A stretch of DNA of 27,665 nucleotides from a bacterium (GTDB taxonomy: Bacteria; Hinthialibacterota; Hinthialibacteria; Hinthialibacterales; Hinthialibacteraceae): contig JBHGBC010000078.1 in NCBI GenBank assembly GCA_041946805.1, forward strand, positions 1 through 27,665. Direction: 5' to 3'. Each line of letters opens with the position of its first letter. The stretch's first letter is position 1. The notes under the pieces are model-generated. The model searched no databases. It was not told the DNA's origin and saw nothing but the letters and a program-made list of their open reading frames with translations. The translations under genes were made by a program, and so were the position numbers. Below, one piece after another: positions 1-25,410 of the stretch.

Positions 1-106
1 GCCCTCTCCCAGAGGGAGAGGGGATTTTGGGGGTGGTTTTCATCGGTCCCTTCAACGAGTCGCGAGTTGGCCATTTGATGAAAAGTACGCACTTGCCGGA
101 TGAGCC
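1..106 (+). mobile_element. MITE family A, right half (cut by window edge)
   Basis: CCCTCTCCCAGAGGGAGAGGG hairpin, a 62-nt segment and right TIR GTACGCACTTGCCGGATGAGCC (85-106). Colinear with complete copies at 11920, 14554 and 21674. Confidence 0.85.
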
Positions 107-11806: not shown

Positions 11807-11894
11807 CCGCCAGGGGTTTTACCCCTGGCAAAAGCAGAAAGCGCCCCTCCGGGGCTGTTTTCCCTCACCCTTGTCCTTTCCCAGAGGGAGAGGG
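11807..11894 (+). repeat. Composite REP block, copy 1 (direct repeat with 12850-12936)
   Basis: CCAGGGG..CCCCTGG hairpin, then AAAGCAGAAAGCGCCCCTCCGGGGCTGTTTT, then a CCCTC hairpin. Confidence 0.85.
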
Positions 11895-11919
11895 GGCAGA
11901 AGAGCGGGGGATTATTTCT

Positions 11920-12129
11920 GGTACATCCGAGAAGTGCGTACATAATGAGGTAAAATCGATTTTATTCACTCCGGGATAAGAGCGGACACCAAGGTCCGCC
12001 CCTGCAAAAAATCCCTCGTCCTAGCCTTCTCCCAGAGGGAGAGGGAATTTTGGGGGTGGTTTTTATCGATCACTTCGAAGAGATGCGAACCGGCGATCTG
12101 AAAAAAAGTACGCACTGGCCGGATGAGCC
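11920..12129 (+). mobile_element. MITE family A, complete (210 bp)
   Basis: TIRs GGTACATCCGAGAAGTGCGTAC / GTACGCACTGGCCGGATGAGCC. 8-bp direct repeat TTATTTCT at 11912-11919 and 12130-12137. Confidence 0.92.
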
Positions 12130-12229
12130 TTATTTCTGAATCAGGAAAGTCAGGAAGCGCAAGATGACCAGGATGTCGATGGATTACGCGCGGCGCGCTG
12201 ATCCGATGCGAGCGTGGGAGGAAACGGAG

Positions 12230-12817
12230 ATGATGAACAGCGGTTTTACCTTGATCGAGTTGTTGATCGTGGTGGCGATCATCGGGATCCTGGCGGCGAT
12301 TGCGGTGCCCAACTTTCTCAACGCGCAGATCCGCGCCAAGATCGCCCGCTGCGAAGCCGACGCGCGGAGCATCGGCACGGCGCTGGAATCGTACCACCTG
12401 GACACCAACGAATATCCGCCCGACGCGCGGTCCGGGGTTTACACGCATTTCTCGCTCAAATGGGCCGATCAGCCCTCCGCCGGCAAACATTTGACCACCC
12501 CGGTGGCGTACATGTCCTCCATCCCCTGGGACGCCTTCAACAGCAAGATGGGCTGGGTGGGATGGACGCCCATCAACAACGCCGAGATGGACATGAAGGC
12601 CATGTTCTTTTTGAACCGCAAATACAACGAGGGGGTGAATTCGTGGGAGCCGGGCCTGCCCTTCGAAAACCGCTTCCGCGGCGCGCATTGGCATATTTAT
12701 TCCATCGGCCCGTCGGTGGAGTACGGCTGGCGGGAGGAACTGACGGCCTGCTGGCTGATGCCCTACGAACCCAGTAACGGCTTGACCAGCAAGGGCGGCA
12801 TTTGGCGGATAGGGTGA
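12230..12817 (+). CDS. Prepilin-type N-terminal cleavage/methylation protein (GspG/pilin-like), paralog 1
   Basis: G|FTLIELLIVVAIIGILAAIAVPNF, LTTPVAY, SIGP and C-terminal YEPSNGLTSKGGI. Start is 12230 or 12233. Confidence 0.92.
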   Translation: MMNSGFTLIELLIVVAIIGILAAIAVPNFLNAQIRAKIARCEADARSIGTALESYHLDTNEYPPDARSGVYTHFSLKWADQPSAGKHLTTPVAYMSSIPWDAFNSKMGWVGWTPINNAEMDMKAMFFLNRKYNEGVNSWEPGLPFENRFRGAHWHIYSIGPSVEYGWREELTACWLMPYEPSNGLTSKGGIWRIG

Positions 12818-12849
12818 GGGAAATAGAAAAATTCACCGCGGAGACGCGC

Positions 12850-12936
12850 CCGCCAGGGGTTGTACCCCTGGTTAAAGCAGAAAGCGCCCCTCCGGGGCTG
12901 TTTTCCCTCACCCCGGCCCTCTCCCAGTGAGAGGGA
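12850..12936 (+). repeat. Composite REP block, copy 2
   Basis: Closely similar to 11807-11894, including an identical AAAGCAGAAAGCGCCCCTCCGGGGCTGTTTTCCCTCACCC. Confidence 0.85.
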
Positions 12937-13016
12937 GAAGTTGGTGGGGAGGGTGGATGATGGGTCATGCGCGGCGCGCTGATCCATTCCATTCAATTTT
13001 TCGTGGTGAGGTGAGT

Positions 13017-13607
13017 TTATAATTTCGGCACGCCGGGGACGTAGCGGCGGATGATGCCCAGGCTGATGAGGCCGTTGGACGCTTCAAAGGGGACAAACGC
13101 CACGCCGAACGTAAACCCCGTGCCCGCCGCGCCGGTGTATTTCATGGATGGCCCCATGCCGAAGATGATCCCGATCGACTGGTTCCAATATTTGAATTCC
13201 GGGTCCTTGGCGGGATCGATCATTTGCCGCGTCAATCCCCCCCAGTAGCGCTTGTCCAGCGGATCCCAGTGGTGTTGCTTTTTGTGGTAGGTGAGATCCG
13301 AGCCGAAACGGTCCTCGGCCACGGGCGTATCCTGGAACGGATCGTACATGAAACCGGAGAGGTAGGGCACGGGCGTGGTCAGCCACCAGTTCTGGTTCGG
13401 CTCATGCGAATGGGGAGGATTGTCGTTGACATCGGCCATGTATTGCAGGATCGCCAGTTCCATGGTGCGTTGGTCGGAAAGGGAGCGGGAGATCTTGGCG
13501 CGGATTTGGGCGTTGAGAAAATTGGGGACGGCAATGGCGGCCAGAATGCCGATGATGGCCACGACGATCAGCAGTTCAATTAATGTAAAACCGCAGGATT
13601 TTGTCAT
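13017..13607 (-). CDS. Prepilin-type N-terminal cleavage/methylation protein, paralog 2
   Basis: G|FTLIE..., LTTPVPY..DPF, GMGP and FEASNGLISLGII motifs. GGGAGAGG RBS. Confidence 0.92.
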   Translation of the reverse strand: MTKSCGFTLIELLIVVAIIGILAAIAVPNFLNAQIRAKISRSLSDQRTMELAILQYMADVNDNPPHSHEPNQNWWLTTPVPYLSGFMYDPFQDTPVAEDRFGSDLTYHKKQHHWDPLDKRYWGGLTRQMIDPAKDPEFKYWNQSIGIIFGMGPSMKYTGAAGTGFTFGVAFVPFEASNGLISLGIIRRYVPGVPKL

Positions 13608-13740
13608 GAAAGCCTCTCCCCTCCGAATGCTAGTCCAAACATGGTAATATTATATCTATCAATTTAAAAGATAGCATATCGCGCCGGGAAAAAGAAGTGA
13701 CCCTGGGGCGATTGCAGGGGGAAAAAGACGGTTCAAGCGT

Positions 13741-14196
13741 TCACCGCGGCGGGTGGGGCATTCGAGATCCTGGTTTTCCCCCCTTATGTGGGATGTTGTT
13801 TTCATGTCCGCGTGGCCAGGGGGAGAGATCCGTGCGAAGGGGGGCGCCCGGGGCTGGTTCCGAAGCGTGCATCAGCAAACCGGGGGCGGGGTGGGAAAGA
13901 GGGAACGGGGATTGGGAAGGATTCGTGAGTAGAAGTCCGAGACTGCCCGCGCGGTTTTGAGCCGGTCCTGCCGGTAGAGAAGAAGCGGGATGGGCAGGTT
14001 GCAGGTTGTCCAGCATGCTCATTTTTTTCCTCCAGTCCAGGTACTGCCGGAGAGAGGATAAATACAAACGGATCAGGGAGATGGCATGGGGATTGAGCAA
14101 ATCTTCCTGCTGCTGGATATCATGGCTCAGTTTTTGGATCAGTTTTTCGAGATCCTGGAGGACATCGGTTTCAAAGGAGTGAGCGGGCATGGGCAT
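13741..14196 (-). CDS. Hypothetical protein (helical N-terminus, Pro-rich disordered tail)
   Basis: 151-aa ORF with an AGAGGA RBS and amphipathic helical first ~65 aa. No family recognised. Confidence 0.5.
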   Translation of the reverse strand: MPMPAHSFETDVLQDLEKLIQKLSHDIQQQEDLLNPHAISLIRLYLSSLRQYLDWRKKMSMLDNLQPAHPASSLPAGPAQNRAGSLGLLLTNPSQSPFPLSHPAPGLLMHASEPAPGAPLRTDLSPWPRGHENNIPHKGGKPGSRMPHPPR

Positions 14197-14413
14197 GGGT
14201 GTTCCTCTGGTTGGGAAATATATGACGGCCAGAAATAATGTCTCTATTGATAGAGAGAAAGGCGCAAAAAAGGGAATTAATTCGGGGAGGGAGTAAAGGA
14301 CATAGTTCCTGTTGAGTTTTTTCCTACGTAGATCAAATTACAAAAAACGGGAACGGGTTAATCGATTGTACGAACAGCCAATAGGGCGCCCTTTCCGGGC
14401 TTCCCTCACCCTA

Positions 14414-14895
14414 GGTTCTGTTGAGTTTTTCCAAGTTGATATAAAACCAGTAGATGTAACAACCATTCCGGTTGCATACCTGTCCGGTATGACACCCTTT
14501 CCGAACTACCCTCACCCTGCCCCTCTCCCAGAGGGAGAGGGAATAATTCCTTTGGTTCATCCGGCAAGTGCGTACCTGTTAGTGCAAAAGGCCTTTCATT
14601 CAATTGCTAATCCGGGTGGACACCCAGGTCCGACACTATGAAAAATCCCTCACCCTAAATCTCTCCCAGAGGGAGAGGGGATTAGGGGATTGATTTCCCC
14701 GGCCCGGCCGATGGAAAAGCGGCCCGGCCTGGTTGATAAAAAGTACTCACTTACCGGATGAACCATTCCTTTTATCGTCCTTTTCCCCGGGCGTTGCCCC
14801 GGATCAGTTTGTTACGCGCCTTTTGCGCGCCGTTGGCGCTTGCATCACAATACGGAATTCCGATGAAGCATGTATTACGAAAACTCAACCGAACC
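14414..14895 (+). mobile_element. MITE family B (263 bp without the nested A copy)
   Basis: TIRs GGTTCTGTTGAGTTTT / AAAACTCAACCGAACC. Flanked by a TA (or CTAG) duplication that splits a CCCTCACCC-TA-GCCCTCTCCC repeat. Confidence 0.85.
14554..14764 (+). mobile_element. MITE family A, complete (211 bp), nested in B
   Basis: TIRs GGTTCATCCGGCAAGTGCGTAC / GTACTCACTTACCGGATGAACC. 8-bp direct repeat ATTCCTTT at 14546-14553 and 14765-14772. Confidence 0.92.
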
Positions 14896-15386
14896 TAGCC
14901 CTCTCCCGGGGGGATAGGGAGGAGAAGAGCGGGAGGAGTATCTGAATCAGGATAGTCCGGATGCACAGGAGGACCAGGATGGGATCAAGACAGGCGGATT
15001 GATTCAGCAAGGGCGGGAAGGAGAAACAGAGGGCGCAGAGAAATACTTGGATGGACACCTAGGGCCGTCCCTTCAGGATGCAGGTAAGACGCCTGCACCA
15101 CAAGAGGGCAAAATCCGGCCGGATGACTGCACCACAAAAGGCTTTCCCGCACTCCGGCCCTCACTGGGGAGAGAAGGGAGACGGGGTGGTTTGCGTTGAA
15201 AAAGCCGGTTCGATGGCAGCCGCGGATACACGAAAAAACCTCCACCAGCCAGAGACATCCGGAAAAACGATTGACGGCACGGCCCGGGATATGAGAGAAT
15301 CAATCGATAGGTTATGGAGACAGGAAGGGCCGGGGCACGGCGGAATGGACTTTTATCGGTATCGAAAAATACCAGAGGAACCGGGG

Positions 15387-15980
15387 ATGACCAGAACCAA
15401 GGCGGGGCAAGGATTTACGCTGATCGAATTATTGATCGTAGTGGCCATTATCGGGATTTTGGCGGCGATCGCGGTGCCTAATTTTCTCAACGCGCAGATC
15501 CGGGCCAAGATCGCGCGGGTGCAGGCGGACATCCGCACCTTGGGGCTCGCCATCCAGATGTACGCCACCGACAAGGGGGATGTGCCGCCCGATATGAACA
15601 CCGGGGGTTATTCCTCGTACATGGTCAATCAGCTCAAGATGTTGACCACGCCGGTGGCGTATATGTCCAGTTTTCCACCGGATCCGTTCAATCCCGGCGC
15701 GGATTCCAACAACGCGGGTTGGGTGCCCACCGAGCGGCAGTTCATGTATTCCGAGTACATCACCAAAAAGGGGAGCGCGGGGACGTTTTGGTCGCCGTTC
15801 GAGCATGTGGAATTGAACAAGGGGCAAAATAACATAAACTACCGCGGTTTCTTGTTTTCGGTCGGCCCTTCGCGGACCCGGTATTTGGGGACCGATTATT
15901 CGATCGGCTGCTGGCACATGGATTATGAAAGTTCGAACGGGCTGACGTCGTTTGGATCGATCCGGCGGTTCATCGAGTGA
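15387..15980 (+). CDS. Prepilin-type N-terminal cleavage/methylation protein, paralog 3
   Basis: MTRTKAGQG|FTLIE..., LTTPVAY..PDPF, SVGP and YESSNGLTSFGSI motifs. AGAGGA upstream of ATG 15387. Confidence 0.92.
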   Translation: MTRTKAGQGFTLIELLIVVAIIGILAAIAVPNFLNAQIRAKIARVQADIRTLGLAIQMYATDKGDVPPDMNTGGYSSYMVNQLKMLTTPVAYMSSFPPDPFNPGADSNNAGWVPTERQFMYSEYITKKGSAGTFWSPFEHVELNKGQNNINYRGFLFSVGPSRTRYLGTDYSIGCWHMDYESSNGLTSFGSIRRFIE

Positions 15981-16175
15981 GGGAGACTGCACCGCCGAGG
16001 CGCGGAGGGCGCAGAGAGAATCAGATAAGATTCATCCGGGGAAATGCGGACCAATGATTTTTTACCTAGGGATGTAATCCGGATTTACTGTATCCCCGCG
16101 GAAAAGGGAATCATTTCCCCGATTCGCATACGGTTCCACGCAATGGGAAGAGCGAGAGAATCGCCAGAAGGCTTT

Positions 16176-16208
16176 CCCTCACCCTTCCCCTCTCCCAGAG
16201 GGAGAGGG
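16176..16208 (+). repeat. CCCTC hairpin repeat
   Basis: CCCTCACCCTTCCCCTCTCCCAGAGGGAGAGGG. Confidence 0.85.
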
Positions 16209-16377
16209 AAGAATAGGAAGGTAATCGTGGGCAGGTTTCGCCGTGCTTAACCAACCCTAAATTTTCCGCATATTCAACCGTTTTCTAACCTCCTACGATC
16301 TTCGGAAGAATAAAAGGGCGTGAGGGACGAAAAGGATCGGGCGGGCACTTAAGTGCCATTAAAAAGGGGAAGACGCA

Positions 16378-16581
16378 ATGAAAGAGGCCATTATCCTGTC
16401 GAATTTGTCCTGCGCGATCATCTCCGCGAAGTGGGCCTTGGACCTTGGATACAGCCAAGTCCGCCAGATTATCATCTTGATTGGCGGCCTGCTGTTCGGG
16501 CCGATCATGCTGCTGATTCTTTATATCCTTTGCGTTCAGAAAACCATGAAGGAGGGGGGATCCGGGGGCCAGCTGCTTTGA
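16378..16581 (+). CDS. Small membrane protein (67 aa)
   Basis: GGGGAAG RBS and ATG start, with two hydrophobic segments including GLLFGPIMLLILY. Confidence 0.55.
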   Translation: MKEAIILSNLSCAIISAKWALDLGYSQVRQIIILIGGLLFGPIMLLILYILCVQKTMKEGGSGGQLL

Positions 16582-16741
16582 AACGGGATGATCGAGGGGA
16601 TGGACCAGCAAGCGGGTTCCTTCTTCCTTGTTCCGCGTTATCCGTGTGGACATAGATGGTCGCCCTTTCAATAGTCCCACATCCCGGCCTTCTCCCGGGG
16701 GGTAGGAGAGCAGAAGTCGTGAGTTTTGTCTGAATCAGGAT

Positions 16742-16768
16742 GTTATCCCCGCGCTTGCGGGGATCCAG
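16742..16768 (+). repeat. Single GTC/TATCCCCGC..GCGGGGATCCAG REP-like hairpin
   Basis: GTTATCCCCGCGCTTGCGGGGATCCAG. Confidence 0.55.
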
Positions 16769-16800
16769 GAAATGGTAGTGCAGGCGGCGCTACCGCAGCC

Positions 16801-16975
16801 AATCCCGAAGGGATTCCATGTGAATAGCCGGGGGTGACAACCCCCGGTTTCGTGCCAATTGAAAACAATCCCGTAGGGGTCGAATGGAATATTCAATCCC
16901 TGCGGGATTGGTATCTGCTCTTAACGAACCGTAGGCTATCGCCTACGGCTATTCACATGGATCCCCTGCGGGGAT
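16801..16975. repeat. Branched REPIN-like palindrome (~175 bp)
   Basis: Perfect 16-bp inverted repeat TCCATGTGAATAGCCG (16815-16830) / CGGCTATTCACATGGA (16946-16961), with terminal, side and central hairpins. Confidence 0.8.
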
Positions 16976-17137
16976 GTAATACTTTTGGTTGATCCGGTTT
17001 TTTGGATAAAGATCAGCTCTTCGGACGAGATTCAGAGTGAGGGATACTCCGCCCAAGTGTGATACATTTCATCTGACTGGCCGGATCAAGAGATCCATTT
17101 ACGATTCCACCACACATTATAAAATTGGAGAAGAAAG

Positions 17138-18055
17138 ATGTCCCCATCCCAGTCTACCAAGTTCGGTCCCAAAGGATTGTTCGGCTCGTACGGCGCGGGG
17201 ATCGGCGCTCCCTTGGAGTTGGCGGTCGAAGCGCCGGGCGTGGAGTGTTTTCAGCTGCATGTCCCCGAGGAAAAGGATTTAACCCCGGCGTGGGCCCAGC
17301 GGGTGAAGGAGTTGATCGCCCCGCGGGGTATTCAGATCGCGCGGTTCGTCATCGGCTATTCGGGACCGGAGGGCGATCAATACGACAGCCCGCAGCGGGT
17401 GCTGGAGACGGTAGGTTTTGGGGTTCCAGATCACCAAAAACGGAAAGCCCGGCTGGAATTGACCAAGAAGTACATTCAGTTCGGCCATGAACAATTGGGG
17501 GTGAAGGATTTCAACGCGCACCTGGGGCATGTCGATCCCCGCAACGAGTTTTTCGGGCCGATGGTGGAGGCGGTGCAGGAGTGCTGCGACCTCACGGCGT
17601 CATGGGGCGGGCATTACGATGTGGAGACCGGGCCGGAGACGTTCGAGGCCCTGCACGCCTTCATGAAAAAGGTGAACCGTCCCGGCGTGTTCCGGGTCAA
17701 CCTGGACCTGGCCAACATCGTGCTCTATCACGGAGAGTGGGAGCCCATCACGTTTCTGCGGAAACTGCTCGGCGCGGGACTCGAAATCGGCGGGGTGCAT
17801 CTCAAGGACGCGATTCCCACGACGTGCAAGCCTTCCCTGAGGCAGTGGAACGGGGAGGAGGTGCATCCCGGCCAGGGCATGGTCAATTTCCCGCTGTTGC
17901 TGAAGACTCTCTTCGAGAGCGGGTACCGGGACGCCATCGTGGTGGAACGCGAAGTGCTGGGCGAGAACGGGCTGCAGAAGGTGCGGCGCATGGCCGAGAC
18001 CCTCACCTGGGTGTACAACCTGTGCCGGGACATCGAGAAGGCGTTCGCGGCCTAG
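17138..18055 (+). CDS. Sugar phosphate isomerase/epimerase (xylose isomerase-like TIM barrel)
   Basis: ETGPE, NLDLAN, HLKD, PGQGMVNF and VERE metal-binding motifs. GGAGA RBS. Confidence 0.88.
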   Translation: MSPSQSTKFGPKGLFGSYGAGIGAPLELAVEAPGVECFQLHVPEEKDLTPAWAQRVKELIAPRGIQIARFVIGYSGPEGDQYDSPQRVLETVGFGVPDHQKRKARLELTKKYIQFGHEQLGVKDFNAHLGHVDPRNEFFGPMVEAVQECCDLTASWGGHYDVETGPETFEALHAFMKKVNRPGVFRVNLDLANIVLYHGEWEPITFLRKLLGAGLEIGGVHLKDAIPTTCKPSLRQWNGEEVHPGQGMVNFPLLLKTLFESGYRDAIVVEREVLGENGLQKVRRMAETLTWVYNLCRDIEKAFAA

Positions 18056-18058
18056 TTA

Positions 18059-18258
18059 CCCCAGGGTTGAAACCCTGGGCTTCTATTCGGCGGCCCCTTG
18101 AAAGGGGCGCCAGGGAGAAATGAGGTTCATGGTAAGGCGCAGGCAAGATGCCTGCATCACCAGGGGTTTACCCTCACCCTGGCCCTCTCCCAGAGGGAGA
18201 GGGAAGGCCTTATGCCCAGGGTTGAAACCCTGGGCTAGTGGAAAAGCGCCGTTGGCAC
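18059..18258 (+). repeat. Mosaic REP cluster
   Basis: Two CCCAGGGTTGAAACCCTGGGC hairpins (18060, 18215), GCCCCTTGAAAGGGGC, GCAGGCAAGATGCCTGC and a CCCTC hairpin (18171-18203). Confidence 0.8.
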
Positions 18259-18545
18259 GGGCACGGCCATCCCGCAATTCAGTAACTCATACATGACAAA
18301 AACTCTACAGAATCCAGTAAACAGTTGCGCCGAATGAATTGAAAACATTTACCCCATCAATCCGAACAACTTCCTGAGCAGGTCAGCAGCGTATTCGCTT
18401 CCACGAGGCCGTCCCGCACGGAATGGCGGTGGGGGCATTCCTGGTTGCAATACTCCGCGGGCAATCCAGGCAAGGGAGAGCCCGGCGGCCGCGGTCCCCT
18501 CCATGCCCCTGGAGAATCAACCAGGATGTCGGCCATAATCCCGAC

Positions 18546-20978
18546 ATGGAGAAGCAACCCAACATAAACAAGGAAATTTCGGAATCACGGCAGGCGGCAG
18601 GGAATCCGCCGGAGTTCGCGCCGTTGGCAGGATGGCACAAGGCGGCTTGGGCCGCGATATGCATCGGGGCGTTGCTCACCCAGCTGTGGCGCTTCACGGA
18701 TCCCTACGGGCTGGCGTATGAAACGGGATTCCAGGAACGGATCGCGCGCCGCCATCTCGATCCGGGCTTGTCCGTCACACGCGGACTATCCACCATCAAC
18801 CACCTGGGGCCGGAACCGACCTTTCACCCCACCCATCCGCCGTTGCTGCAGTGGATCTTGGCGGGACTCTATGCCGTGCTCGGCGATTCCGAAGCCACCG
18901 CCCGGCTCGTTCCCCTGACCAGTTTCCTGCTGCTCCTATTGGGAATCTGGCGGTTGACCCACGGTTATATATCGCCCCGCGCCCGGTTGTTGGCCCTGGC
19001 GGCGGCGTGGTTGTGCCCGCTTTCGTTTTACGCCGGGCGGATCGTGAATTTCGAACCGCCGGTGATGGCCTGCATTGTTTGGACGATGGTATGGATTGAA
19101 TCCCTGAACCGTCAACCATCCTGCCGGGCCTGGATCGGCCTTCTGGCGGTGGGAGCCGTGGGAACGCTGATCGACTGGCCGTATTCCTTGTTCGTGCTGT
19201 GCCTCTTCCTGCTGTCGTTTTTCCGGGAGGACCGGAATCATTCATATAAAAAGGCCGTAAGGAGTTTATTCGTTCTCTCGATGGGGCTTTCCATCCTGTA
19301 TGTCCTGTATGTCTGGGGCGCGGGCGCGATGCCGACCCTATTGCATCACGCCAAGGTGCAGACGGGAGCCTACTCGGTGGAAAGCGGCTACCAGCTGCCA
19401 CCGTTCCTGGTCAGCCCGTTGTGGTGGTGGTCGTTGTTGCTCCGCGCGGGAACCCATGGGACGCCGGTTTTGTTGGGACTGCTGGCGGGCTGGCTGGTTT
19501 TGGTGGCGCGAAAACGGCGGTGGCGGGCCGGGCTGGCGCACGGGAGCCTCGTTTTGAGCGTGTTTTGCATGGCCTACCTGGCCCTGTTCGCGCGGGCTTC
19601 GCATCACCATGTCTGGTGCCTCTTTTACCTGGCCCCGTTGATGAGCCTTGCGTTCGGCCTGGTGGCGGAACGCCTGCGGCCGGTCACCGGCTATGCCCTC
19701 CTGGCGGGCGTGGTGGCGTTTGCCGTCCCGATGAATTATGAATTCCGCGCCAAGCAACCCTTGCATTCCATCGTGCAATACGGCCGGGTGATCGCGGCGG
19801 CCACGGCTTGTCTGCCCCCGGAAATCCGTCATCCCCTTGCGGGTCCGTTGCTCTACGTCAACCGGGTCGATCCCTTGCCGTATTACGCGGGGTGCGAAAC
19901 CGCCTTTTCGCACATGTCGGTGGAGGTCGCCGCGCCGGACAAGTTCCTCATCCGCCACCGGCCCGAATTCGTGGCTCTGACCGGCTATACCGCGCGATCG
20001 TCCATCACGGTGACGCCCGAATACCCCCCCGGCTTGTTCGAGCGGCTGGACAAGTCCTATACCCTCGTCTATCAGGAAGCCAACACGGAGCAATGGGAAT
20101 CGTTTTGGTCGCCCCATCTCTCGCTCATGGGCCTGATTCGCGGGCCCGGGGGGAGGAAGCCGGAGATTGCCCTGATCGAGGACACCGTGAGCGTCCATGC
20201 CGGCGCGCGGTTGGATCCCGGGCCGAACGCCCTGTCGATCGGCCTCAAGCGGATCCCCAAGCCCGGCCGCCGCTGGCTGCACGGCTGGGTGATCGGACCT
20301 GGATCGCCCGCGCTCGATCCCATCCCCGTCACCGTCCAGAACGGCGCGGGGAGAGCCTTGGGAACCCTGCAGGTCATTCCGCAGCCGCCTCAGCCCCGGT
20401 GGCAGGAATTCTGGCTGTATATCGGAGATCTGCCGGACTACATCCATTTTTCCTGGGACAAGGCCCGGCTGTTGTGGGGCGATCTGCGGCTGTATTCGGA
20501 AACCCTGTGGGCCACGGATTTGACCCAGATGCTCGCCGGGGAAATCCGGCGGCGGCTCGGCCCCAAGGCGTACCGGGAAATCCTGAGCCCCGGGGCCGCC
20601 GGAACCGCCATCCTCCAGCATCCCGGATTCGGCGTGGACAGCGTGGATCTGCCGCCCCTCCGCATGGGGTATAACCAGGACTTGCTCGTCTCTTACGGGA
20701 TGAATCCCGCCATTCAGGACAAAAGCGATGGCGTGGGTTTCAAACTCTACGCGCGGGATCACGCTCTAGGCAAGCGAACTTTGATACTGGATGATTTTCT
20801 GCATCCCGCCCAAAATCCCCAGGACCGGGGCTGGCGGACGAAGCGGATTCCCATGACGCCGCATTCCCGGCACGTGCTGACCTTTACCTTCGAGGTGAAT
20901 CCCGGCCCGGCGGGCAATTCCAACAGCGATCACGCCTTGTGGCGCGAGGCGCGGTTCGTCCCGCGGGGGGTGGAATGA
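18546..20978 (+). CDS. ArnT/PMT-like (GT-C) membrane glycosyltransferase with C-terminal extracytoplasmic beta domains
   Basis: HPPLLQWILAGLYAVLGDSEATARL motif, many TM helices and a soluble C-terminal half ending SDGVGF...NPGPAGNSNSDHALW. Start is uncertain. Confidence 0.75.
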   Translation: MEKQPNINKEISESRQAAGNPPEFAPLAGWHKAAWAAICIGALLTQLWRFTDPYGLAYETGFQERIARRHLDPGLSVTRGLSTINHLGPEPTFHPTHPPLLQWILAGLYAVLGDSEATARLVPLTSFLLLLLGIWRLTHGYISPRARLLALAAAWLCPLSFYAGRIVNFEPPVMACIVWTMVWIESLNRQPSCRAWIGLLAVGAVGTLIDWPYSLFVLCLFLLSFFREDRNHSYKKAVRSLFVLSMGLSILYVLYVWGAGAMPTLLHHAKVQTGAYSVESGYQLPPFLVSPLWWWSLLLRAGTHGTPVLLGLLAGWLVLVARKRRWRAGLAHGSLVLSVFCMAYLALFARASHHHVWCLFYLAPLMSLAFGLVAERLRPVTGYALLAGVVAFAVPMNYEFRAKQPLHSIVQYGRVIAAATACLPPEIRHPLAGPLLYVNRVDPLPYYAGCETAFSHMSVEVAAPDKFLIRHRPEFVALTGYTARSSITVTPEYPPGLFERLDKSYTLVYQEANTEQWESFWSPHLSLMGLIRGPGGRKPEIALIEDTVSVHAGARLDPGPNALSIGLKRIPKPGRRWLHGWVIGPGSPALDPIPVTVQNGAGRALGTLQVIPQPPQPRWQEFWLYIGDLPDYIHFSWDKARLLWGDLRLYSETLWATDLTQMLAGEIRRRLGPKAYREILSPGAAGTAILQHPGFGVDSVDLPPLRMGYNQDLLVSYGMNPAIQDKSDGVGFKLYARDHALGKRTLILDDFLHPAQNPQDRGWRTKRIPMTPHSRHVLTFTFEVNPGPAGNSNSDHALWREARFVPRGVE

Positions 20979-20989
20979 GCAAGTGTTTT

Positions 20990-21610
20990 TTACACGGCTG
21001 ATCCCAAAATCCCCCGCTCCCGCAAGATTTTGCGAAGATCCTCCACGGAATGAAACCGCACCGCCGGGATGCCCACGGCCCTTGCTCCGGCCACGTTGGG
21101 CTCCATGTCGTCGATGAACAGGCAATCCGCCGGATTCAGCTGGTAATGATCCAGCAAATATTGGTAGATGGCCGGTTCCGGTTTGGCCGTTTTCAAGGCA
21201 TACGAAACCACGACGCCCTCGAAGCGGTCCCAGAAGGTGAGCCGGGCGCGCAGATCTTCATACGACTCGCGGATGATGTTGGAGAGCACGTACAGCCGGT
21301 ATCCCGCCGCGCGCAGATCGTCCAATATCGCGACGGTTTCTTCTATCGGTTGAAACATGGAGAGCCAATGCTGGAAGAAAAGTTCCACCGCGTCACGTAA
21401 CGCGGGCTGGCGCTCGATGAAGATGGATTTGGCTTGTTCGACGCGGATTTTCCCCCGGTCGAGTTCCCGCCATTCCGGGCTTTTAATGATCAGTTCATAA
21501 CACTGATGGGCTCTTTCTCCATCGTTCAATAGATGGGTCAGAAATTCCATGGGATCGAAGGTGATCAAAACGTTTCCCAGGTCGAAAATGATGTTCCTCG
21601 GTTGGCGCAT
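20990..21610 (-). CDS. HAD family phosphatase
   Basis: IFDLGNV, LSN, KPEPAIY and FIDD..NV.GA motifs. ATG at 21610. Confidence 0.92.
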   Translation of the reverse strand: MRQPRNIIFDLGNVLITFDPMEFLTHLLNDGERAHQCYELIIKSPEWRELDRGKIRVEQAKSIFIERQPALRDAVELFFQHWLSMFQPIEETVAILDDLRAAGYRLYVLSNIIRESYEDLRARLTFWDRFEGVVVSYALKTAKPEPAIYQYLLDHYQLNPADCLFIDDMEPNVAGARAVGIPAVRFHSVEDLRKILRERGILGSAV

Positions 21611-21673
21611 GGTGACACTTTCCTGACAATCGGGTGAGTCGACCGGCATAAATTCCTCATCCCTCTGATTGTG

Positions 21674-21883
21674 GGTTCATCCGGCAAATGCGTACTTGGC
21701 GGTGAAAACAGTGTTCCATCTCCTCCCGGTTGCGGGTGGACACCCAGGTCCGCCCCTACCAAAATTCCCTCACCCTAGCCCTCTTCCAGAGGGAGAGGGG
21801 ATTGGGGGTGGATCTCTCAATCGAGCCCGGTTGGATACGGGACATGTTTTCATGACAATCGGTACGCAGTAACCGGATGAACC
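21674..21883 (+). mobile_element. MITE family A, complete (210 bp)
   Basis: TIRs GGTTCATCCGGCAAATGCGTAC / GTACGCAGTAACCGGATGAACC. 8-bp direct repeat TGATTGTG at 21666-21673 and 21884-21891. Confidence 0.92.
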
Positions 21884-22065
21884 TGATTGTGCCTGATTTG
21901 CCACAGGATGCGAGCCCCGCGGCGGTCAGGGAAGGAGATGCTGAATCCACCAATGGTGATAGGAATAATTGATAAAATTAGTATAATTATGAAGTTAAAA
22001 ATGTGGGTGACAATATCCCGTTTGTGAGTTATATTTTAGAAAAAATGAAATCGGGGGGGAGCGCC

Positions 22066-25148: not shown

Positions 25149-25410
25149 CTGTCTGTATGACACCCTTTCCGAACGGCCCTCACCCTGGCCCTCTCCTGGA
25201 GGGAGAGGGGTTTAACGATCGGGCGGACACCAAGGTCCGCCCCTACAAAAATACCCTCACCTTGGCCCTCTCCCGGAGGGAGAGGGAATTGTTCCTAATA
25301 TCGTCTTTTTTACCGGGCGTTGTCCCGGATTAGCTTCTGGCGCGCCGTTGGCGCTTGCCTCACAATACGGAATTCTGATGAAGTGCGTATTACGAAAACT
25401 CAACCGCACC
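25149..25410 (+). mobile_element. MITE family B, left-truncated copy
   Basis: Aligns to 14480-14895 minus the A insert and ends AAAACTCAACCGCACC-TAG. Carries an extra REP+hairpin unit. No left TIR is visible. Confidence 0.75.

What the first reader, a model, noticed from the sequence alone, without database searches (positions are those of the whole stretch)
11912..21891. MITE family A: fixed geometry with hypervariable internal segments and perfect 8-bp TSDs
Seen: copies at 11920, 14554, 21674 and a half copy at 1-106 share one layout. It runs 22-bp TIR, 38 nt, GTAG-type REP palindrome (GGGYGGACACCMAGGTCCGCCCCTAC), 7 nt, CCCTC hairpin, 62-63 nt, 22-bp TIR. The variable segments are 38/38/38 and 62/63/62/62 nt long, yet one hand-aligned pair of 38-nt segments is only about half identical (18/38). 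Each complete copy keeps a perfect, different 8-bp duplication (TTATTTCT, ATTCCTTT, TGATTGTG). Known: GG termini with ~8-bp TSDs occur in ISL3, IS1595, IS6 and IS1 families. Inference: an old, diversified, still-mobilised non-autonomous family under selection for spacing (transpososome geometry or RNA structure), carrying two unrelated REP types as cargo.
Basis: partly seen in the sequence, partly recalled or inferred. Interest (0 to 1): 0.8.

Follow-up and report, generated by a model that had tools for sequence, protein, structure and literature searches.

The report
ISL3 MITE shuffled at BoxC core
These ~210-base repeats are old copies of a very abundant miniature transposon, likely spread by an ISL3-type transposase; their fixed layout is likely inherited rather than selected, and their internal BoxC repeat likely acts as a swap point where copies break and exchange halves.

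Summary
The layout, lengths, 18/38 identity and three perfect 8-bp duplications are confirmed. The genome holds 199 paired copies and 250 internal lone ends. An 880-bp ISL3 remnant carries the same TIR. Intact ISL3 elements elsewhere have related ends with 8-bp duplications.

The 'hypervariable' spacers are subfamily differences: the three copies belong to three subfamilies. The hairpin matches the known BoxC/TM triplex motif. The GTAG palindrome is the REP flanking a local RAYT.

Selection for spacing is weak: only the left spacer shows an indel deficit (P 0.01-0.05). Same-TIR elements run 98-402 nt elsewhere, and no arm covariation was seen. Current mobility is not shown: no two full copies exceed 94% identity, and only 40 of 197 duplications are perfect.

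The best new result is that 106 of 250 lone ends stop at BoxC, and a 99.6%-identical tract shared with a congener ends there. The scan noted this family and its BoxC earlier on other pieces of this genome.

The parts
11920..12129 (+). MITE copy 1, commonest subfamily. TIR 11920-11941, left spacer 11942-11979, REP 11980-12005, BoxC 12013-12045, right spacer 12046-12107, TIR 12108-12129
11912..11919 (.). Left 8-bp target duplication of copy 1 (TTATTTCT); the right copy is at 12130-12137
14554..14764 (+). MITE copy 2, second subfamily. TIR 14554-14575, left spacer 14576-14613, REP 14614-14639, BoxC 14647-14679, right spacer 14680-14742, TIR 14743-14764
14546..14553 (.). Left 8-bp target duplication of copy 2 (ATTCCTTT); the right copy is at 14765-14772
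21674..21883 (+). MITE copy 3, minor subfamily. TIR 21674-21695, left spacer 21696-21733, REP 21734-21759, BoxC 21767-21799, right spacer 21800-21861, TIR 21862-21883
21666..21673 (.). Left 8-bp target duplication of copy 3 (TGATTGTG); the right copy is at 21884-21891
1..106 (+). Right half at the contig start: end of BoxC 1-22, right spacer 23-84, TIR 85-106. It is identical over all 106 nt to the congener's copy at the same site, where the DNA upstream of BoxC is a different repeat module and not a MITE left arm, so it is probably a true right-half element.
14509..14541 (+). Free-standing BoxC just left of copy 2. The MITE sits in the AT-rich gap of a BoxC-plus-module composite repeat.
11862..11894 (+). 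Free-standing BoxC-like hairpin 25 nt left of copy 1
25220..25354 (+). REP + BoxC + downstream module with no TIR. Its BoxC-module part is a paralogue of the composite into which copy 2 inserted, without the MITE.
   Evidence: (families D2, D15)

Best explanation
This is an old, very abundant miniature transposon, likely derived from and copied by an ISL3-family transposase, whose subfamilies likely inherited one layout and whose internal BoxC repeat likely serves as a crossover point that breaks copies into halves and swaps their arms. Shown: 22-bp TIRs shared with an ISL3 remnant, AT-rich 8-bp duplications, several subfamilies, a RAYT-flanking REP and a BoxC inside, and lone ends that stop at BoxC. 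Inferred steps: (1) a founder with ISL3 ends enclosed a REP-BoxC composite already common in the genome; (2) the transposase, acting in trans, amplified successive founders in waves, giving subfamilies about 55-60% alike in the spacers; (3) copies then decayed at an ordinary indel rate, so length drifts little; (4) because the genome carries roughly a thousand BoxC copies, recombination or slippage at BoxC (sometimes at the REP) gives half-elements, mosaic arms, lost duplications and junctions for DNA exchanged with a congener. Exchange at the shared core keeps the register, which adds to the look of fixed geometry.
For: Parent: G000 C163:3914-4793 is an 880-bp internally deleted element with TIRs at 0 and 1 mismatch, and its transposase C-terminus reads into the right TIR. 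Its fragments hit NF033550. Of 79 related loci, 56 have paired TIRs 1.1-1.7 kb apart, 38 a perfect 8-bp duplication, 45 an ORF of at least 390 aa, and 31 both (many are repeats from a few genomes). No IS1595 transposase was found in the assembly. Subfamilies: the window copies fall in three different left/right clusters. Copy-versus-consensus indel:substitution ratios are 0.04-0.055 (left) and 0.10 (right). Age: the highest identity between full copies is 0.938, median nearest neighbour 0.85. BoxC: the hairpin's reverse strand fits the TM consensus given in PMC4666352 with 2, 2 and 1 mismatches; there are 462 exact genomic matches. Breakpoints: 52 left and 54 right halves of 250 internal lone ends stop at BoxC. 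35 of 63 left and 38 of 68 right halves of the 210 class end in the BoxC window (binomial P about 1e-18 and 1e-13 against uniform). Direct cases: a 1567-nt tract 99.55% identical between G000 C7 and G001 ends at BoxC, after which the two genomes carry different right arms. In G000 it lies inside a 2850-bp span bounded by one perfect duplication (1 seen, 0.1 expected). Two G001 loci show a reciprocal flank swap with BoxC at both junctions. A REP-to-REP deletion fuses a MITE left arm to a RAYT gene in G000.
Against: All 9 left-spacer subfamily consensuses are exactly 38 nt, with 0 indels in 66 substitutions against 4.4 expected (P=0.012; 3.0 expected, P=0.052 with coarser clusters), so descent alone may not explain that segment. 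Synteny breaks are only suggestively commoner at BoxC halves: 11 of 24 against 4 of 18 for intact copies, Fisher P=0.19. Only 4 of 85 copies in the large clusters are left/right mosaics. 83 of 250 lone ends have no BoxC nearby. The spacers show no clear homology to the remnant's subterminal DNA (z at most 1.6), so the founder's origin is inferred from the TIR alone. No transposition was observed.
Confidence: 0.72

Rival explanations
1. One reading: founders are selected for exact spacing, because transposase synapsis or formation of a small circular intermediate needs a set distance or helical phase.
For: Nine left-spacer consensuses are all 38 nt across 66 substitutions (P 0.012-0.052). The BoxC-to-TIR right spacer is 58-64 nt in 153 of 174 elements across size classes. 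99 of 199 elements are 208-212 nt. ISL3 is listed among families with circular intermediates (passage in 10.1101/2023.06.07.543989).
Against: No indel deficit in the right spacer (consensus 60-64 nt). Among all 38 left-spacer clusters, singletons included, 14 have a modal length other than 38. ~250 and ~260-nt classes with duplications exist in the same genome. Same-TIR elements span 167-304 nt in related genomes by my pairing, most 188-304 (one search prints 188-304 for G017 and 235-263 for G003), and 98-402 nt in metagenomes. No 10-11-bp periodicity in a hand-assembled list of 31 lengths (Rayleigh P 0.13-0.85); within G000 it is borderline (P 0.04-0.09, non-independent copies).
Confidence: 0.15
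2. The copies are kept by the host as structured RNA or regulatory DNA, and the spacers covary to hold a fold.
For: Single copies fold well (z -4.8, -5.0, -7.7). Some same-site copies are 95-100% identical between G000 and G001 while nearby coding DNA is less alike.
Against: The consensus fold has only the TIR stem, the REP hairpin and the BoxC hairpin; spacers are unpaired and the covariation term is +0.27 (16 sequences). Own-subfamily left/right duplexes are no more stable than swapped ones, except perhaps in one 3-member group. Orientation to flanking genes is 51:48. Shared ends average 0.907 identity against 0.925 for adjacent non-coding DNA and lie in tracts that are more alike overall. 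No Rfam match.
Confidence: 0.06
3. Half-elements, mosaics and lost duplications are assembly chimeras made where the assembler passed through the repeated hairpin.
For: The genome is a 315-contig assembly, and 117 of 630 contig ends break inside an element. Public-run contigs of the best holder also break at these repeats.
Against: BoxC half-elements recur at the same site, at least 90% identical through and beyond the junction, in the separately assembled G001 (L126/C300, L192/C1). Left and right halves are nearly equal in number. The TIRs, duplications and subfamilies do not depend on this point.
Confidence: 0.07

Closest known systems
ISL3-family insertion sequences (NF033550, PF01610) and their non-autonomous MITE derivatives
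   Same: 22-bp TIR starting GG, shared with a local ISL3 remnant and related to the ends of intact ~1.3-kb ISL3 elements; AT-rich 8-bp duplication.
   Different: No transposase; the interior is a REP-BoxC composite with no detectable homology to the remnant's subterminal DNA; very high copy number.
BoxC / PIT / TM_ECO intrastrand-triplex motif (PMC4666352; passages and section 19 read)
   Same: Fits the stated consensus with 1-2 mismatches; intergenic; linked to local genome variability.
   Different: That paper did not find the E. coli motif associated with transposons, phages or plasmids and left the mechanism of instability unclear. Here 174 of 199 MITE copies carry it, and breakpoints map to it.
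GTAG-type REPs of subclass 2.4 TnpA-REP / RAYT group 4 (PMC6006769, passages; PMC3733652, passages)
   Same: The same palindrome flanks a Y1 transposase gene in both genomes and is inserted in frame between its HuH and Tyr motifs, the stated hallmark of subclass 2.4.
   Different: Most copies here (219 of 331 within 200 nt of a TIR) ride inside a DDE-type MITE, not as free REP dimers.
Classical bacterial MITEs such as RUP, NEMIS/Correia, ERIC and Nezha (named in passages of PMC3733652 and PMC3184786)
   Same: 70-300 bp, 15-30-bp TIRs, non-coding, intergenic, many copies, empty and filled sites in relatives.
   Different: No conserved long internal stem; modular interior that is exchanged at BoxC.

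Membership tests
MITE | Short, non-coding, bounded by TIRs | tested here: met
   210-211 nt, 22-bp TIRs; 0 of 164 oriented copies inside genes by a crude in-script gene caller
MITE | Target-site duplication of fixed length | tested here: met
   8 bp; 82 of 197 with at most 1 mismatch against about 2 expected
MITE | Multicopy, with empty sites in relatives | tested here: met
   199 paired copies; 79 of 106 mapped G001 ends have no TIR at the matching G000 site; one near-clean empty site L117/C245
MITE | Mobilised in trans by a cognate transposase | not testable with these tools
   Needs an assay; only a deleted cognate remnant is in the assembly
ISL3-derived element | TIR shared with an element encoding an ISL3 transposase | tested here: met
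   C163 remnant with 0 and 1 mismatches; NF033550 hits; intact relative L046 with 3 and 1 mismatches, 324 bits over cut-off 180
ISL3-derived element | AT-rich 8-bp duplication (family trait recalled; checked on intact loci) | tested here: met
   MITE duplications 82% A+T; 38 of 56 paired ISL3 loci have a perfect 8-bp duplication
ISL3-derived element | Subterminal DNA homologous to the parent IS | tested here: inconclusive
   Left spacer against remnant left end z=1.6; right spacer z=-0.8
ISL3-derived element | Circular intermediate | tested here: inconclusive
   No convincing end-to-end joint among the joints listed; data were contigs, and the raw-read run did not cover the unique flanks
IS1595-derived element | IS1595 transposase with these ends in the genome | tested here: not met
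   0 matches to PF12762 in a 96.8% complete assembly
IS1- or IS6-derived element | IS1 or IS6 transposase with these ends | not tested
   Not searched once the ISL3 remnant with the same TIR was found
BoxC / TM_ECO motif | Sequence consensus stated in PMC4666352 | tested here: met
   2, 2 and 1 mismatches in the window copies; 462 exact matches in the genome
BoxC / TM_ECO motif | Forms an intrastrand triplex | not testable with these tools
   Needs CD or NMR; the paper itself found no support for a stable triplex in vivo
GTAG REP of a RAYT | GTAG foot next to a GC-rich hairpin | tested here: met
   Reverse strand of the palindrome begins GTAG in the consensus; hairpin in the consensus fold
GTAG REP of a RAYT | Flanks a Y1/HuH transposase gene | tested here: met
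   L125 open frame hits PF01797 (over cut-off) and NF047646 (E 1e-15, 57.9 bits, below the cut-off of 80), with the REP on both sides and in frame inside

The most novel reading that the evidence does not exclude
BoxC is a true recombination hot spot, not just one more shared repeat. ISL3 MITEs sow it through the chromosome, and it then anchors the entry of DNA from congeners and drives rearrangements. That would give the unexplained instability around BoxC/TM motifs both a vehicle and a mechanism. The invariant 38-nt left spacer may in addition be a selected transposase or host-factor spacing.
Probability: 0.3. Interest if true: 0.6.

Novelty: new variant of a known kind. Interest (0 to 1): 0.33.

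Why it matters
As a MITE it is ordinary. Its value is as a natural test set for an open point: PMC4666352 reported that BoxC/TM motifs mark unstable regions but found no link to mobile elements and no mechanism. Here each BoxC sits between two typed arms and often within a target duplication, so crossovers can be mapped. About a hundred lone ends stop at BoxC, and one near-identical tract shared between two species ends exactly there. If BoxC recombines more than an equally long, equally common repeat would, this family makes that directly testable. Practically, the family also explains part of the fragmentation of this assembly (117 of 630 contig ends).

Tried and rejected
1. IS1595 parent: no transposase match.
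2. A DUF559 nuclease as the enzyme of the hairpin: one weak hit inside a 2065-aa frame, not followed up; no paper held both terms.
3. Left-right arm pairing suggested by single-copy folds: not borne out by swap tests, a diagonal scan or the consensus fold.
4. Helical-phase periodicity of lengths: not significant across lineages (the list of 31 lengths was put together by hand).
5. Host conservation of same-site copies: explained by high-identity tracts (21 ends, after dropping 4 of the 25 alignable shared ends at or below 60% identity and 2 at contig ends).
6. Spacers as remnants of the IS ends: no significant homology.
7. MITE targeting next to BoxC: only modest, 18 of 132 against 267 of 3000 control sites.
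8. Promoter in copy 1: none by the sigma-70 scan.
9. Transcripts, circles and empty alleles in public runs: one run holds the locus and is probably the source; others have small shares; RNA runs were contigs only, and the raw-read run did not cover the unique flanks. Nothing can be said on expression or habitat.
10. Between-founder gap counts for the right spacer are unreliable, because pairwise alignment of diverged sequences opens compensating gaps; only the net lengths were used.
11. Two reviews on IS families were not held and a search for ISL3 target traits returned nothing, so the family traits are recalled and were checked on intact loci.
12. A sequence look-up in earlier findings returned nothing.

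Full report
Observation. The three copies, their spacer lengths, the 18/38 match and the perfect 8-bp duplications are as described. The window is contig C292 of a 6.70-Mb, 58% G+C assembly in 315 contigs. The 22-bp TIR matches 774 places with at most 5 mismatches, against 14 in a shuffled genome. A weight-matrix scan pairs 199 elements of 100-330 nt and leaves 370 strong lone ends, 120 of them near contig ends and 250 internal. 99 of the 199 are 208-212 nt; 27 are 243-256 nt and 21 are 257-275 nt. Duplications are perfect in 40 of 197, have one mismatch in 42 and two in 25, against 0.2, 1.7 and 7.2 from permuted flanks; they are 82% A+T.

Parent. Five ISL3 transposase matches lie in the genome and no IS1595 match. 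One of them, C163:3914-4793, is an 880-bp internally deleted element bounded by the MITE's TIR with 0 and 1 mismatches, and its reading frame ends inside the right TIR. Its C-terminus retrieved 79 loci. 56 have paired related TIRs 1.1-1.7 kb apart, and 31 have both a perfect 8-bp duplication and an ORF of at least 390 aa; many are repeats from a few genomes. One, L046, passes the NF033550 and PF01610 cut-offs. A tblastn with it finds only the C163 remnant and a more distant, interrupted ISL3 in G000. A genome of the same family, G017, has two full-length ISL3 elements whose ends differ from this TIR at 5-6 positions. That ISL3 makes 8-bp AT-rich duplications is recalled; it was checked on these loci. 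Circular intermediates for ISL3 are stated in a passage of 10.1101/2023.06.07.543989.

Cargo. Earlier scan notes on other pieces of this genome named the hairpin BoxC; I checked this against PMC4666352 (passages and section 19). The reverse strand of the window hairpins fits the stated consensus with 2, 2 and 1 mismatches, and the genome has 462 exact matches. With a looser pattern there are 993 hairpins, 382 within 200 nt of a TIR. Several relatives match only this part of the element, so BoxC exists without the MITE. The GTAG palindrome flanks a Y1 transposase gene in G000 and G001 and is also inserted in frame between its HuH and Tyr motifs. PMC6006769 (passages) gives that as the mark of subclass 2.4. 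So one cargo is a RAYT-type REP and the other is BoxC.

Hypervariability and geometry. Of 125 elements of 200-222 nt, 116 have both modules. The left spacer is 38 nt in 90 and 37-39 nt in 110; the right spacer is 60-63 nt in 102. Clustering shows two large subfamilies (57 and 25 copies with matching arms) and several small ones, and the window copies belong to three different ones. Copies differ from their subfamily consensus with an indel:substitution ratio of 0.04-0.055 (left) and 0.10 (right). Between consensuses the left spacer shows 0 indels in 66 substitutions, where 4.4 are expected (P=0.012; P=0.052 with coarser clusters); right-spacer consensuses run 60-64 nt and show no deficit. With singletons included, 24 of 38 left clusters are 38 nt. 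Total length is not fixed. The ~250 and ~260-nt classes keep a similar right arm (58-64 nt from BoxC to TIR in 153 of 174) but have longer left parts. Related genomes carry same-TIR MITEs of 188-304 nt with other cores, and 24 paired elements among 147 further loci span 98-402 nt. No helical periodicity appears across lineages. A mild constraint on the left spacer remains possible; a family-wide spacing rule does not.

Structure. Single copies fold strongly, but the consensus of 16 copies keeps only the TIR stem and the two hairpins, with no covariation support. Own arms pair no better than swapped arms, except perhaps in one 3-member group. There is no orientation bias to genes (51:48) and no Rfam match.

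Age and mobility. No two full copies reach 95% identity (maximum 0.938, median nearest neighbour 0.85). Young identical copies could be hidden, since 117 of 630 contig ends break inside an element. The congener G001 has the family. I fetched stretches around the listed TIR positions (100 of 130 were listed) and found 116 ends, 106 with a mappable flank. 27 are shared with G000 and 79 are not, with one near-clean empty site. So insertion or loss went on after the two species parted, but present activity is not shown. Shared copies are as alike as adjacent non-coding DNA (0.907 against 0.925) and sit in tracts that are more alike overall.

What breaks the copies. Of 250 internal lone ends, 167 have a BoxC at about the expected distance. 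52 left and 54 right halves stop there, often continuing into other repeat modules; 47 continue into a MITE arm and 83 have no BoxC. For the 210 class, 35 of 63 left and 38 of 68 right halves end in the BoxC window. Three cases show the event. At C7, a 1567-nt tract 99.55% identical to G001 runs through a left arm and BoxC; the genomes then carry different right arms, and in G000 the tract lies within a 2850-bp span bounded by one perfect duplication. Two G001 loci join flanks that are reciprocally swapped relative to G000, with BoxC at both junctions; the direction is not known. At C301 the DNA between the MITE's REP and a RAYT's REP is missing in G000. Against a strong reading: synteny breaks at BoxC halves are only suggestively commoner (11 of 24 against 4 of 18, P=0.19), few full copies are mosaics (4 of 85), and my data cannot separate a special BoxC activity from plain recombination at the commonest shared repeat. 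Some half-elements recur in the separately assembled G001, which argues against pure assembly artefact.

Literature. Searches for MITE with ISL3 and REP, for BoxC with MITE, and for mosaic MITE-REP elements showed no paper describing an ISL3 MITE with a REP-BoxC core. I saw listings for most and passages for PMC3733652, PMC3184786, PMC4133298 and PMC9333248. The library lacks most subscription papers, and I opened no supplements, so this is not proof of absence. PMC4666352 states that the E. coli motif was not found with transposons, phages or plasmids and that the cause of its instability is unclear.

Verdict. A real, large, old ISL3-type MITE family: a new variant of a known kind, already noted by this scan elsewhere in the genome. 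The claim of selected geometry shrinks to a borderline signal in one spacer. The part worth following is BoxC as a mappable exchange point. Interest 0.33.

Noticed in passing
G000 C301:3090-3811 and L125:380-1360: RAYT gene flanked by the MITE's REP, with an in-frame REP inside. It is open in G001 and carries one stop in G000, where the DNA between the MITE's REP and the RAYT's upstream REP is missing.
   Followed up: yes
G000 C7:7777-10626: 2850-bp span bounded by MITE ends and one perfect 8-bp duplication, holding a transposase-like fragment (IS66-like by eye, not tested) and two uncharacterised ORFs of 285 and 303 aa. Part is 99.6% identical to G001.
   Followed up: partly
L162-L251, L252-L398: Other genomes and metagenomes hold MITEs with related ISL3-type TIRs and 8-bp duplications but unrelated interiors, often palindromic or REP-like. 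Capture of local repeats between ISL3 ends looks recurrent.
   Followed up: partly
L165, L169, L173 (G024): Family-A copies with the same layout occur in a genome of another family of the order, in few copies; either transfer or mis-binned contigs (6% contamination).
   Followed up: no
L112:3663-3868 against window 21674-21883: At the site matching copy 3, G001 has a copy of another subfamily in the opposite orientation a few bases away, with a different duplication: independent use of one intergenic site.
   Followed up: partly
L111:2660-3770 against window 11807-12242: At the site matching copy 1, G001 has no MITE but a ~150-nt tandem array of REP + BoxC + module.
   Followed up: partly
window 12164-12817, 13017-13607, 15078-15980: Three genes with a prepilin-type N-terminal methylation motif (PF07963) clustered among the repeats.
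   Followed up: no
genome-wide: Free-standing BoxC shows an orientation bias to co-directional flanking genes (264:197, P=0.002), while MITE-borne BoxC does not (51:48).
   Followed up: no
L114:1650-1859 against G000 C219:1736: Near-identical copy in both genomes, but the G000 left flank changes exactly at the TIR and loses the duplication, as an adjacent deletion or rearrangement would.
   Followed up: no
G000 C236:2046, C159:6840, C202:926: Further left-end remnants of the cognate ISL3 (74-86% identical to the C163 left end).
   Followed up: partly
window 16804-16972, 18057-18237: Other palindromic repeat types (inverted pairs I3 and I25); the second type also forms the left part of the ~260-nt MITE class.
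   Followed up: no
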